The translations under genes and the position numbers were made by a program. Positions 41,079-43,160 of a DNA stretch of 43,160 nt are shown here, one piece after another. Each line of letters starts with the position of its first letter. Position 1 is the stretch's first letter. The stretch comes from a virus (lineage: Duplodnaviria; Heunggongvirae; Uroviricota; Caudoviricetes). The DNA lies in the IMG/VR virus record IMGVR_UViG_3300014682_000024, positions 1 through 43,160 of that record; one strand, written 5' to 3'. The notes under the pieces are model-generated. The model saw nothing but the letters and a program-made list of their open reading frames with translations, did not search any database and had not been told where the DNA came from.

Positions 41079-43160
41079 ATGAGTAAAGTCTTTATTTGCG
41101 CCGCCATTCCGGACGAACAGGCAATAAAGGAAGAAGGTGCAGTCGCTGTAGCCACTGCCATTGAAGCCGGCGACGAACGCCGCGCCCGTGCCAAATTTAC
41201 CTGGCAATTCCTGGAGCAATATCCGGCTGCTCAGGACTGCGCTTATAAATTTCTTGTCTGCGAGGATAAACCCGGCATGCCCCGCCCTGCCATCGACTCC
41301 TGGGATACCGAATATATGCAGGAAAACCGCTGGGATGAGGAATCCGCTTCCTTTGTTCCGGTCGAACCAGAATCCGATCCGATGAACGTCAATTTTGACA
41401 AGCTGTCCCTTGAAGTGCAGAACGCGGTCCTGGTTAAGTTCGGTACATGTGAAAACATCACCGTTGATATGGCGATTGACGCGCAGGAATTACTGCAGGA
41501 AAACGTGGCTACCTTTGACGGGCATATCGTTGAAGCACTGATGAAAACGCCTGAAATTAACGCTATGTATCCGGAACGCAAACTGTTCGCTATCGGATGG
41601 GTTAAACACAAATGTAATCCGGGTGCCAAATGGCCCGAAATTCAGGCTGAATTACGTAACTGGAAAAAACGGCAGGACGCAGAGCGCAAAGAGACTGGAA
41701 AATGCACGTCTGTTGTTGATCTCGCCCGCGCCAGAGTCAATCAACAGAACACTGAAAACTCAGCAGGAAAAATCAACCCAGTCACTGCCGCCATTCGTCG
41801 CCAATACAAGCAGACATGGAAAACGCTGGATGAAGAACTGGCCTACGCTCTCTGGCCTGGCGATATTGATGCCGGAAACATTGACGGCAGCATCCATCGC
41901 TGGGCAAAAAATGAAGTTATCGACAAAGATCGCGAAGACTGGAAGCGCATCTCCGCATCAATGCGCAAACAGCCTGATGCGATTCGCTACAACCGCCAAA
42001 CTATTTTTGGCCTTGTCCGTGAACGTCCGATCGACATTCACAAAGATCCTGTAGCGCTGAACAAATACATCACTGAATACCTGGCGACAAAGGGCGTGTT
42101 TGAGGATGAAGAAACAGACCAGAGCACTGCTGATATTCTCCAGCCGTCAGCAGCACAAACTGATGCAGTGGAAACTGAAGTATCTGATACCCAAAAAAAT
42201 GAAAGCGCGCTGGAAACTGAACCATCTGTAGAGCGTGAGGGACCGTTCTATTTTCTCTTCACCGATAAAGATGGCGAAAAATATGGCCGCGCAAACAAAC
42301 TTTCTGGTCTGGATAAGGCGCTGGCTGCAGGGGCTACTGAAATCACGAAAGAAGAATATTTTGCCCGCAAAAACGGTACATACTCAGGTTCACAACAAAA
42401 TACTGGTACATCTGACACGATCGCACAACCAGAGCCGGTAAAAGTTACCGCTGACGAAGTAAACAAAATTATGCAGGCAGCCAATATCAGCCAGCCTGAC
42501 GCCGATGAACTGCTTGCAGTATCACGTGGTGAATTTGTTGCAGGGATTAGCGATCCGAATGATCCGAAATGGGTGAAGGGGATTGAAACCCGCGATTCTG
42601 TGAACCAGAACCAGCAAGAAATGGAACAGAACGACCAGAAAGCGGAACAAAACAGCCCAAATACGCAACAAAACGAGCCAGAAACGAAACAATCCGAACC
42701 AGTAGCACAACAGGAACAGGAAAAAGTCTGCACCGCCTGCGGTCAGAGCGGTGGCGGCAACTGCCCTGATTGTGGCGCGGTGATGGGCGACGCAACATAC
42801 CAGGAAACATTCGATGAAGAGAATCAGGTTGAAGTTCAGGAAAATGATCCGGAGGAAATGGAAGGCGCTGAACATCCACACAAGGAGAATGCTGGCAGCG
42901 CTCAGGACCACGCCAGCGATAATGAAACTGGCGAGACGGCAGATCCCTTAATTGTGATGAACAGTCATCACGTTGTCACATCCACCAGCAGAGTGTGGTA
43001 CCACCTGATGATCGATCTTGAAACCATGGGAAAAAATCCTGATGCCCCGATCATCTCAATAGGTGCAATATTTTTCGATCCGCAAACCGGAGATATGGGA
43101 CCGGAATTTAGTAAGACTATCGATCTGGAAACTGCTGGCGGAGTCATTGATCGGGGCACC
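41079..43160 (+). CDS. RecE-like (exodeoxyribonuclease VIII family) protein, 3'-partial; a DEDD-type exonuclease motif begins at the window end
   Basis: Frame open from ATG 41079 (SD GAGG) to the window end with no stop; central motifs LLA.SRGEF..GISDPNDPKWVKGI.TRD and C.ACGQ.GG.NCPDCGAVMGDATYQETFDEE match RecE as recalled; the last 50 aa show HLMIDLETMG...IISIGAI (DnaQ-like Exo I). Confidence 0.55.
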   Translation, partial: MSKVFICAAIPDEQAIKEEGAVAVATAIEAGDERRARAKFTWQFLEQYPAAQDCAYKFLVCEDKPGMPRPAIDSWDTEYMQENRWDEESASFVPVEPESDPMNVNFDKLSLEVQNAVLVKFGTCENITVDMAIDAQELLQENVATFDGHIVEALMKTPEINAMYPERKLFAIGWVKHKCNPGAKWPEIQAELRNWKKRQDAERKETGKCTSVVDLARARVNQQNTENSAGKINPVTAAIRRQYKQTWKTLDEELAYALWPGDIDAGNIDGSIHRWAKNEVIDKDREDWKRISASMRKQPDAIRYNRQTIFGLVRERPIDIHKDPVALNKYITEYLATKGVFEDEETDQSTADILQPSAAQTDAVETEVSDTQKNESALETEPSVEREGPFYFLFTDKDGEKYGRANKLSGLDKALAAGATEITKEEYFARKNGTYSGSQQNTGTSDTIAQPEPVKVTADEVNKIMQAANISQPDADELLAVSRGEFVAGISDPNDPKWVKGIETRDSVNQNQQEMEQNDQKAEQNSPNTQQNEPETKQSEPVAQQEQEKVCTACGQSGGGNCPDCGAVMGDATYQETFDEENQVEVQENDPEEMEGAEHPHKENAGSAQDHASDNETGETADPLIVMNSHHVVTSTSRVWYHLMIDLETMGKNPDAPIISIGAIFFDPQTGDMGPEFSKTIDLETAGGVIDRGT

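What the first reader, a model, noticed from the sequence alone, without database searches (positions are those of the whole stretch)
41079..43160. RecE-like protein apparently fused to a DnaQ-like (DEDD) exonuclease domain, missing from the ORF track
The longest ORF in the window (at least 694 codons, no stop before the window end) is not in the supplied track. Its central region matches RecE hallmark motifs. The segment that begins just before the window end carries a clear DnaQ-type Exo I motif (DLETMG...IISIGAI), whereas canonical RecE has a different nuclease fold, which suggests a domain swap.
Basis: partly seen in the sequence, partly recalled or inferred. Interest (0 to 1): 0.55.

Follow-up and report, generated by a model that had tools for sequence, protein, structure and literature searches.

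The report
Prophage RecE-like 3'-5' exonuclease (YdfE)
The open reading frame at the window's end is the first 84% of a very common E. coli prophage gene, the intact form of the K-12 pseudogene ydfE: it has a RecE-like non-catalytic body joined to a DnaQ-type 3'-5' exonuclease, it is already catalogued, and its function has not been tested experimentally.

Summary
Window 41079-43160 (+) is one open frame of 694 codons, cut by the window end. That cut is the only reason it is missing from the ORF list.

- **Domains:** residues 240-626 match the non-catalytic part of Rac RecE. Residues 642-686 start a DEDDh exonuclease domain (Pfam PF16473, Exo I D646/E648).
- **Full length:** an E. coli contig carrying the same prophage (99.6% nt) gives 823 aa, with Exo II and Exo III intact. 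An excisionase-like gene and an integrase follow, with no RecT or Bet.
- **Identity:** it is the intact ortholog of the K-12 Qin pseudogene ydfE. It is covered by PHROG 2082 and newer Pfam models (YdfE_N, YdfE_C), and PGAP names it "3'-5' exonuclease". Similar DNA occurs in 4891 of 5426 complete E. coli genomes.
- **Prior literature:** a 2025 paper describes DnaQ-like nucleases in lambdoid recombination modules, and a nuclease-only, Chi-rich "Tritos" class that this prophage fits.
- **Domain swap:** Both head types pair with either the PDDEXK or the DEDDh domain.

The biochemical role is untested. My best guess is DNA-end processing during lytic growth that relies on host RecBCD/RecA. Interest is low and the gene is already known.

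The parts
41065..41068 (+). Shine-Dalgarno-like GAGG, 10 nt upstream of the start codon
   Evidence: Read directly from the sequence. No sigma-70-like promoter was found on the + strand between 40000 and 41300, so the gene is probably co-transcribed with dicB and ydfD.
41079..43160 (+). First 694 of about 823 codons of the ydfE-type exonuclease gene, truncated by the window end
   Evidence: Open frame. It is 98% identical to the 823-aa protein P0121, 94% to the E. coli 52F4 copy, and 85% to the K-12 Qin pseudogene ydfE over aa 1-256. The 52F4 ortholog matches PHROG 2082 'exonuclease' over 823/823 positions.
41079..41720 (+). N-terminal head, aa 1-214: an alpha/beta domain (1-100) and a helical domain (101-214). 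Corresponds to Pfam YdfE_N and YdfE_C.
41811..42110 (+). Helical domain, aa 245-344, shared with RecE (aligns to about RecE 260-351)
   Evidence: NCBIfam PRK09709 match begins here. BLASTP to RecE. pLDDT above 90. dN/dS 0.07-0.22.
42240..42389 (+). Small beta-hairpin/helix domain, aa 388-437 (FYFLFTDKDGEKYGR...), not aligned to RecE
   Evidence: pLDDT 91-96. It has the strongest purifying selection in the gene, dN/dS 0.02-0.04. It falls in a gapped stretch of the RecE alignment.
42480..42608 (+). Conserved RecE-type segment, aa 468-510 (LLAVSRGEFVAGISDPNDPKWVKGIETRD)
   Evidence: Near-identical to RecE 445-487. The DNA-level homology to K-12 recE covers gene nt 1425-1877 at 76.8%.
42729..42776 (+). 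Cys4 zinc-ribbon-like motif, aa 551-566 (CTACGQSGGGNCPDCG), shared with RecE
   Evidence: Motif positions. Identical CxxC...CxxC in RecE. Weak Pfam DZR hit, E 0.049, below the cut-off.
42777..42998 (+). Acidic disordered linker, aa 567-640. It contains the RecE/DEDDh junction (homology to RecE ends at 'ADPLI', about aa 626) and a local mosaic patch.
   Evidence: pLDDT below 50. 14 of the 16 aa differences from the otherwise 99.6%-identical prophage L005 fall in aa 605-641. One Chi site (- strand) lies at 42982-42989.
42999..43160 (+). Start of the DEDDh (DnaQ-fold, DexA/Rv2179c-like) 3'-5' exonuclease domain, aa 641-694. Exo I motif D646 and E648 are at nt 43014-43022.
   Evidence: Pfam PF16473. 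In full-length orthologs the domain spans aa 641-813, E 1e-64 to 1e-67. Exo II D746 and Exo III H796/D801 are present in L005. The catalytic residues align with those of T4 DexA. The best structural match is T4 DexA 8KEL, Foldseek E 2.8e-9.
40610..40998 (+). Upstream operon partners: dicB (40610-40798) and the ydfD-like DUF1482 gene (40795-40998)
   Evidence: PHROG 1251 and PHROG 1092. Pfam DicB and DUF1482 in the identical prophage L005. Same order as K-12 Qin: dicB-ydfD-ydfE.

Best explanation
**What it is (shown)**
- This is the 5' 84% of the intact ydfE-type gene of a Qin/Tritos-like lambdoid prophage.
- It is the last gene of the early-left (dicA/cI, dicF, dicB, ydfD) operon, just before an excisionase-like gene and an integrase.
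- The full-length protein is 823 aa. A YdfE-type head and a RecE-like helical domain come first, then long acidic/Gln-rich disordered linkers, a small beta domain, a conserved RecE segment and a Cys4 zinc ribbon. Together they tether a C-terminal DEDDh exonuclease of the phage DexA/Rv2179c family.
- It is a RecE paralog in which the 5'-3' PD-(D/E)XK nuclease has been replaced by a 3'-5' DnaQ-fold nuclease.

**How it most likely works (inferred)**
- It is expressed with the early-left operon after induction or infection.
- It serves as the phage's only own DNA-end-processing enzyme. The non-catalytic RecE-type scaffold would bring the nuclease to DNA ends or host partners, and the DEDDh domain would trim 3' ends.
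- The prophage has no annealase, no SSB and no recognisable RecBCD inhibitor, and it is rich in Chi sites. Recombination-dependent growth would therefore be carried out by host RecBCD/RecA on ends prepared or edited by this enzyme.
For: **Identity and architecture**
- Open frame and domain matches.
- Full length and downstream genes in the same prophage and in related phages.
- K-12 ydfE orthology.
- PHROG 2082 covers the full length. Pfam YdfE_N, YdfE_C and Rv2179c-like hit the 98%-identical P0121.
- All five DEDDh catalytic residues are conserved relative to T4 DexA. The best structural neighbour is DexA 8KEL, followed by RNase T and Orn.

**The gene is functional**
- dN/dS is 0.02-0.22 in the folded domains and 0.4-1.5 in the linkers.
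- Intact 823-aa copies are found on hundreds of contigs.

**The scaffold is independent of the nuclease type**
- PF06630 + DEDDh: P0245, P0303, P0311.
- YdfE-type head + PDDEXK: P0253.
- YdfE-type head with no recognised nuclease: P0246, P0252, P0255.
- The two head types are remote homologs by hhalign (94% probability).

**Link to a recombination role**
- The gene sits where Rac has recE-recT.
- No annealase was found in the early region.
- The window has 13 Chi sites against 1.67 expected.
- PMC12315714 reports DnaQ-like nucleases in lambdoid Rec modules. It also defines a nuclease-only, Chi-rich, anti-RecBCD-less class with Tritos as prototype. The only nuclease in Tritos's early-left operon is the ortholog of this gene.
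- Full-length RecE, but not its nuclease domain alone, enhances linear-linear recombination (PMC11611040). This implies the shared scaffold has a role of its own.
- No own promoter was detected.
Against: - No experiment on this protein was found in the searched literature.
- 3'-5' exonucleases usually antagonise rather than promote homologous recombination, as PMC12315714 itself notes.
- That paper also warns that one- or two-gene Rec modules are 'somewhat suspect'.
- It further notes that DnaQ-type genes next to int may not be Rec-module genes at all.
- The N-terminal domains have no informative structural neighbour, so the 'targeting scaffold' role is an inference.
- The promoter scan is a crude consensus search.
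- The last 129 codons of this particular copy were not seen. Some copies are inactivated: a 4-bp frameshift in the PPompW phages and an IS2 insertion in K-12.
Confidence: 0.55

Rival explanations
1. It is a prophage-encoded exclusion (defence) nuclease. The DEDDh domain would act like the E. coli DexA homologue EcD ('HREX'), which digests modified (5hmC) DNA of incoming T-even phages but spares host DNA. The RecE-type body would only localise or regulate it.
For: - PMC12153337 shows that plasmid-borne EcD (GenBank HAK9828821.1) degrades T4 DNA and protects E. coli from T4. It also reports that Escherichia accounts for 38% of bacterial DexA homologues.
- The closest solved structure to this domain is T4 DexA.
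- The gene lies next to int/xis, a common site for accessory genes.
- PADLOC gives a weak hit to a CRISPR-associated DEDDh model, E 8e-4.
Against: - The two DexA residues reported to recognise 5hmC are not conserved in the aligned ortholog: W152 becomes Y, and D169 becomes A or falls in a deletion.
- The tetramer residue D90, which is lost in EcD, is retained here. These alignments are at only 26-32% identity.
- No own promoter was detected, and the operon is repressor-controlled in K-12 (PMC11430063). The gene should therefore be silent in a lysogen.
- EcD appears to be a stand-alone domain, not an 823-aa fusion. Its sequence could not be retrieved here.
Confidence: 0.2
2. It is a nucleic-acid scavenging or RNA-processing enzyme. 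Either it degrades host DNA fragments to nucleotides during lytic growth, as T4 DexA does, or it acts on RNA 3' ends, as the family's founding member Rv2179c does. In neither case would it have a role in recombination.
For: - The Pfam family is named for an exoribonuclease.
- RNase T and oligoribonuclease are close structural neighbours.
- DexA has a documented host-DNA scavenging role (PMC12153337).
- Stand-alone homologues are widespread in unrelated phages: 748 phage records matched.
Against: - Fusion to a RecE-type scaffold that is interchangeable with a recombination nuclease points to DNA ends as the substrate.
- Temperate lambdoid phages are not known to degrade the host chromosome (general knowledge).
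- The gene's position is that of the Rec module.
Confidence: 0.15
3. It is a decaying, non-functional remnant of a RecE-like gene carried passively in prophages.
For: Inactivated copies exist: K-12 ydfE is cut by IS2E, and the PPompW copies have a 4-bp frameshift.
Against: - Folded domains are under clear purifying selection, dN/dS 0.02-0.22.
- All catalytic residues are intact.
- Intact 823-aa copies are found in very many genomes and in plaque-forming phages such as Tritos and HannyBb.
Confidence: 0.05

Closest known systems
YdfE of the E. coli K-12 Qin cryptic prophage (b1577, pseudogene), with Pfam YdfE_N (PF27430) / YdfE_C (PF27432) and PHROG 2082 'exonuclease'
   Same: - 85% amino-acid identity over aa 1-256.
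- Same operon position after dicB-ydfD and before int.
- Full-length match to PHROG 2082.
- Same Pfam set in the 98%-identical protein P0121.
   Different: The K-12 copy is cut by IS2E after about codon 256 and lacks everything downstream. The window copy is intact as far as the window reaches.
RecE (exonuclease VIII) of the Rac prophage
   Same: - Homologous non-catalytic body: helical domain, the conserved SRGEFV...KWVKGI segment, a Cys4 zinc ribbon and an acidic linker.
- Probably the N-terminal head as well (hhalign 94%).
- Same place in the early-left operon.
   Different: - RecE ends in a PD-(D/E)XK 5'-3' nuclease (PF12684) and is followed by RecT.
- This protein ends in a DEDDh 3'-5' nuclease and has no annealase partner.
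- Its NCBIfam score of 270.7 is far below the equivalog cut-off of 1269.
T4 DexA (PDB 8KEL) and the Rv2179c-like DEDDh family (PF16473), including the E. coli EcD/'HREX' nuclease
   Same: - Same fold and the same five catalytic residues.
- Pfam family membership.
   Different: - DexA and EcD appear to be stand-alone proteins of about 190-230 aa. Here the domain is the C-terminus of an 823-aa multidomain protein.
- The 5hmC-recognition residues W152 and D169 are not conserved.
'Tritos' class of lambdoid recombination modules (PMC12315714)
   Same: - Nuclease only, with no annealase, SSB or recognisable anti-RecBCD gene.
- Chi-rich genome: 13 sites against 1.67 expected.
- The Tritos gene is 89% identical at the DNA level.
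   Different: This is another member of the same class. The paper's supplementary table, which would say which nuclease type it assigns to Tritos, could not be read.

Membership tests
RecE / exodeoxyribonuclease VIII (NCBIfam PRK09709; Pfam PF06630 + PF12684) | C-terminal PD-(D/E)XK 5'-3' nuclease domain (PF12684-like; RecE aa 564/615-866) | tested here: not met
   Full-length orthologs (823 aa) show PF16473 at aa 641-813 and no PF12684. K-12 RecE shows PF12684 at aa 615-850.
RecE / exodeoxyribonuclease VIII (NCBIfam PRK09709; Pfam PF06630 + PF12684) | Whole-protein score at or above the NCBIfam equivalog cut-off | tested here: not met
   270.7 bits against a cut-off of 1269. Only profile positions 263-603 of 877 are matched.
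RecE / exodeoxyribonuclease VIII (NCBIfam PRK09709; Pfam PF06630 + PF12684) | N-terminal Exonuc_VIII domain (PF06630) | tested here: inconclusive
   No Pfam hit. A profile-profile comparison of the two N-terminal families gives 94% probability, E 9e-8, at only 9% identity.
RecE / exodeoxyribonuclease VIII (NCBIfam PRK09709; Pfam PF06630 + PF12684) | Adjacent RecT annealase gene | tested here: not met
   In five independent contexts the downstream genes are an excisionase-like gene and an integrase. No annealase was found among the window's early genes.
RecE / exodeoxyribonuclease VIII (NCBIfam PRK09709; Pfam PF06630 + PF12684) | Homology of the central non-catalytic region, including the zinc ribbon | tested here: met
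   BLASTP E 7e-61, near-identity over aa 468-625. 76.8% nucleotide identity over 453 nt.
DEDDh / DnaQ-fold exonuclease, Rv2179c/DexA-like (PF16473) | Pfam score above the gathering threshold | tested here: met
   57.9 bits against 27 for the 46 profile positions inside the window. 215-227 bits over the full profile in orthologs.
DEDDh / DnaQ-fold exonuclease, Rv2179c/DexA-like (PF16473) | Exo I motif (D-x-E) | tested here: met
   D646 and E648 in IDLETMG, window nt 43014-43022. They align with DexA D7 and E9.
DEDDh / DnaQ-fold exonuclease, Rv2179c/DexA-like (PF16473) | Exo II Asp and Exo III His-x4-Asp | tested here: inconclusive
   These lie beyond the window end. They are present (D746, H796, D801) in the same prophage on contig L005, whose protein is 97.7% identical over the 694 shared residues. 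They align with DexA D119, H190 and D195.
DEDDh / DnaQ-fold exonuclease, Rv2179c/DexA-like (PF16473) | 3'-5' exonuclease activity | not testable with these tools
   Requires a biochemical assay.
YdfE family (Pfam PF27430 YdfE_N, PF27432 YdfE_C; PHROG 2082) | Match to the family models and to K-12 YdfE | tested here: met
   Precomputed Pfam hits on the 98%-identical P0121. 85% identity to K-12 YdfE aa 1-256. PHROG 2082 matched over 823/823 positions, 1757.8 bits, by the 94%-identical 52F4 ortholog.
HREX / EcD-type modification-dependent defence exonuclease (PMC12153337) | Conserved 5hmC-recognition residues (DexA W152, D169) and loss of the tetramer residue D90 | tested here: not met
   W152 becomes Y. 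D169 becomes A or is deleted, depending on the alignment. D90 is retained and S87 becomes P. The alignments are at low identity, so this is weak evidence.
HREX / EcD-type modification-dependent defence exonuclease (PMC12153337) | Selective digestion of modified phage DNA and protection from T4 | not testable with these tools
   Requires an experiment. The EcD sequence (HAK9828821.1) was not retrievable.
'Tritos'-class nuclease-only lambdoid Rec module (PMC12315714) | The early-left operon has a nuclease but no annealase, SSB or anti-RecBCD gene, and the genome is Chi-rich | tested here: met
   Gene content; the small ORFs belong to PHROGs of unknown function, so 'none recognisable' is the accurate wording. 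13 Chi sites against 1.67 expected, with 0 of 100 shuffles reaching 13.

The most novel reading that the evidence does not exclude
The RecE/YdfE non-catalytic body may be a self-contained module that targets DNA ends or partner proteins regardless of which nuclease it carries. Phages would plug in exonucleases of opposite polarity: PD-(D/E)XK 5'-3' with RecT, DEDDh 3'-5' without any annealase, or no nuclease at all. The DEDDh version would then define an undescribed one-protein strategy. It might hand ends to host RecBCD/RecA in Chi-rich phages, or destroy the ends of competing phage DNA.
Probability: 0.2. Interest if true: 0.55.

Novelty: already known. Interest (0 to 1): 0.22.

Why it matters
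The gene itself adds little. It is present in most E. coli genomes, is named by standard annotation pipelines, and belongs to existing Pfam and PHROG families. DnaQ-like nucleases in lambdoid recombination modules were reported in 2025.

What remains open is function. The role of RecE's large N-terminal region is a long-standing unknown. The same scaffold carries nucleases of opposite polarity, and the 3'-5' version never comes with an annealase. That gives a clean natural experiment for asking what the scaffold does. It could also show how Chi-rich lambdoid phages without Gam use host RecBCD.

In practice, the many near-identical copies per genome (median 2, up to 12) explain why this gene often breaks draft assemblies into 'partial exonuclease' fragments.

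Tried and rejected
- **Architecture survey with the central region.** Searching the 5.8-billion-protein set with only aa 460-630 returned only short, partial E. coli fragments under 300 aa. It was useless for the survey. The 50%-representative search plus Pfam was used instead.
- **Supplementary tables of PMC12315714.** These would say which nuclease type the authors assign to Tritos. They are not held.
- **EcD (HAK9828821.1).** The sequence could not be obtained. A stand-alone prophage homologue (PhiR40_1, 190 aa) was aligned instead, and it does not reproduce the reported A78 position.
- **DicF.** Rfam did not report it at the gathering threshold, although the region is 85% identical to the K-12 ydfC-dicB spacer.
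- **Literature searches.** Searches for experimental work on this protein (Rv2179c + phage; RecE + DnaQ-like; ydfE) found only annotation-level mentions. One search for 'full-length RecE' was swamped by 'receptor' papers.
- **Rejected: opposite-strand ORFs are genes.** ORFs inside the gene on the other strand, such as 42248-42733 (-), are shadows of a conserved coding frame under purifying selection.
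Full report
**1. The observation**

Translating window 41079-43160 on the + strand gives 694 codons without a stop, beginning MSKVFICAAIPDE. A GAGG sits 10 nt upstream of the ATG. Annotated orthologs in phages and E. coli genomes start at the same codon. The ORF-listing tool states that it does not list ORFs that run off the source, and that is why the frame was 'missing from the track'. It is not the longest ORF in the window: 1207-4335 (-) is 1042 aa.

**2. Domain content inside the window**

- Pfam finds the start of a PF16473 (Rv2179c-like 3'-5' exoribonuclease) domain at aa 642-686. The match is E 1.4e-15 and covers profile positions 2-46 of 177, cut by the window end.
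- NCBIfam finds exodeoxyribonuclease VIII (PRK09709) at aa 240-626, against profile positions 263-603 of 877. The score of 270.7 bits is far below the equivalog cut-off of 1269.
- BLASTP against K-12 RecE shows weak similarity from about aa 160 and near-identity over aa 468-625. That stretch covers the LLAxSRGEFVxGISDPNDPKWVKGIxTRD segment, a CxxC...CxxC zinc ribbon and an acidic tail. It ends at 'ADPLI', exactly where RecE's PDDEXK domain (PF12684, aa 615-850) begins.
- At the DNA level, gene nt 1425-1877 are 76.8% identical to recE.

**3. What lies beyond the window**

- Window 35079-43160 is 99.6% identical to E. coli contigs L005-L007, which carry the same prophage.
- There the gene is 823 aa. 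Over the 694 shared residues it is 97.7% identical to the window copy.
- Exo I is D646/E648, Exo II is D746 and Exo III is H796/D801, so the domain is the DEDDh type.
- Full-length orthologs match PF16473 end to end, E 1e-64 to 1e-67.
- The five catalytic residues align with those of T4 DexA. An AlphaFold model of the 823-aa protein has DexA (8KEL) as its best PDB neighbour, followed by RNase T, oligoribonuclease and Cap18.
- The downstream genes are an excisionase-like gene and an integrase in every context examined: PPompW phages, Tritos, strain 52F4, L005-L008 and vB_EcoS-689R5. None has an annealase.
- The window's early-left region reads cI-like repressor, three small ORFs, a DicF-like spacer, dicB, a ydfD-like gene, then this gene. 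Neither it nor the early-right genes contain a recognisable annealase, SSB or Gam.

**4. Identity**

- K-12's Qin prophage has the same order: dicA-ydfABC-dicF-dicB-ydfD-ydfE-(IS2E)-intQ.
- The ydfE pseudogene product is 85% identical to aa 1-256 of the window protein, so this is intact ydfE.
- The family is well catalogued. PHROG 2082 'exonuclease' matches 823/823 positions of the 52F4 ortholog. Newer Pfam models YdfE_N, YdfE_C and Rv2179c-like are precomputed for the 98%-identical P0121. PGAP names it '3'-5' exonuclease'.
- Similar DNA is present in 4891 of 5426 complete E. coli genomes, with a median of two places per genome and up to twelve.

**5. The swap is general**

A search of 1.84 billion representative proteins found 495 relatives. 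Pfam on ten long ones shows every combination:

| N-terminal head | C-terminal nuclease | Examples |
|---|---|---|
| RecE-type (PF06630) | PDDEXK | Rac RecE |
| RecE-type (PF06630) | DEDDh | P0245, P0303, P0311, P0331 |
| YdfE-type | DEDDh | this gene |
| YdfE-type | PDDEXK | P0253 |
| YdfE-type | none recognised | P0246, P0252, P0255 |

- The last group may be the 'RecE-2' proteins of PMC12315714.
- The two head types are themselves remote homologs by profile-profile comparison: 94% probability, E 9e-8, at low identity.
- The PF06630+DEDDh form in phage 689R5 also sits between ydfD and xis/int without RecT.
- PDDEXK forms (Rac, Gifsy, HK225, FSL SP-016) come with RecT.

**6. Is it functional?**

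- Pairwise dN/dS among three full-length copies is 0.02-0.22 in the folded domains.
- The lowest value is in a small beta domain at aa 388-437 that RecE lacks.
- dN/dS is 0.4-1.5 in the linkers predicted to be disordered.
- The gene is therefore maintained by selection, although dead copies exist: IS2 in K-12 and a 4-bp frameshift in the PPompW phages.
- The N-terminal 440 aa fold confidently but have no informative structural relative.

**7. Mechanism**

*Shown.* It is a multidomain protein with an intact DEDDh active site on a RecE-type scaffold. It sits at the Rec-module position of a prophage that has no annealase and is Chi-rich: 13 GCTGGTGG sites against 1.67 expected.

*From the literature.*
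- PMC12315714 reports DnaQ-like nucleases in lambdoid Rec modules. It also describes a nuclease-only, Chi-rich class with Tritos as prototype. The only nuclease in Tritos's early-left operon is the ortholog of this gene.
- Full-length RecE does something its nuclease domain alone does not (PMC11611040).

*Inferred.*
- The protein is made with the early-left operon. No own promoter was detected, and the K-12 operon is repressed by DicA (PMC11430063).
- It trims DNA 3' ends so that host RecBCD/RecA can carry out recombination-dependent growth.

I rate the identity and architecture at about 0.95 and this mechanism at about 0.4.

*Main rival: HREX-like exclusion nuclease.* PMC12153337 shows that EcD digests 5hmC DNA and blocks T4. 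Three points argue against it here, all weakly:
- DexA's W152 and D169 are not conserved.
- D90 is retained.
- The gene looks repressor-controlled.

*Lesser rivals.* Nucleotide scavenging or RNA processing, and a decaying relic. dN/dS contradicts the relic idea.

**8. Verdict**

The gene is nevertheless ordinary in the sense that matters for a scan. It is one of the commonest prophage genes in E. coli, it is already modelled in the family databases, and its class was described in 2025. The residual interest lies in the untested biochemistry and in the use of one scaffold with nucleases of opposite polarity.

Noticed in passing
window, whole; sites at 536, 21897, 26877, 27227, 28633, 29448, 31312, 31364, 31897, 31954, 33587, 35186, 42982: There are 13 Chi sites (GCTGGTGG) against 1.67 expected, and none of 100 shuffles reached 13. 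Eight are on the - strand and five on the +, mostly clustered at 26.8-35.2 kb. This fits the Chi-rich, Gam-less lambdoid classes of PMC12315714.
   Followed up: partly
window 33072-33245 (-): Rfam sok antitoxin RNA (RF01794), 98.2 bits against a gathering score of 59. This indicates a hok/sok-type toxin-antitoxin locus inside the prophage.
   Followed up: no
window 40104-40610 (+): The spacer upstream of dicB is 85% identical to the K-12 ydfC-dicB region that encodes DicF. It has a terminator-like hairpin at 40389-40416. Rfam did not call DicF at the gathering threshold, so the sRNA core is diverged.
   Followed up: partly
window 42891-43001 (aa 605-641 of the exonuclease gene): Against an otherwise 99.6%-identical prophage (L005), 14 of the 16 amino-acid differences in this gene fall in this 37-codon patch at the linker/DEDDh junction. 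This suggests a short gene-conversion tract from a paralogous copy. One Chi site lies inside it.
   Followed up: partly
window 30953-32128 (-): A 391-aa ORF matches PHROG 96 'HNH endonuclease' (E 4e-175) and carries four Chi sites within its coding sequence.
   Followed up: no
window 36525-37190 (-) and 36979-38094 (-): The P-like helicase-loader ORF and the O/DnaT-like replication ORF overlap by 212 nt as listed, and both hit PHROG 15931. The loader probably starts at a later codon, since the L005 gene call is 180 aa.
   Followed up: no
window 28286-29332 (-): A 348-aa DNA methyltransferase (PHROG 6025 and 67) lies in the late-regulatory region of the prophage.
   Followed up: no
L005 9779-11943, downstream of the same prophage: The integrase is followed by a Peptidase_M78 gene and mtfA (Peptidase_M90). 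In phage 689R5 a tRNA-Ser lies between int and mtfA. The prophage therefore probably sits at a tRNA-Ser site next to mtfA.
   Followed up: no
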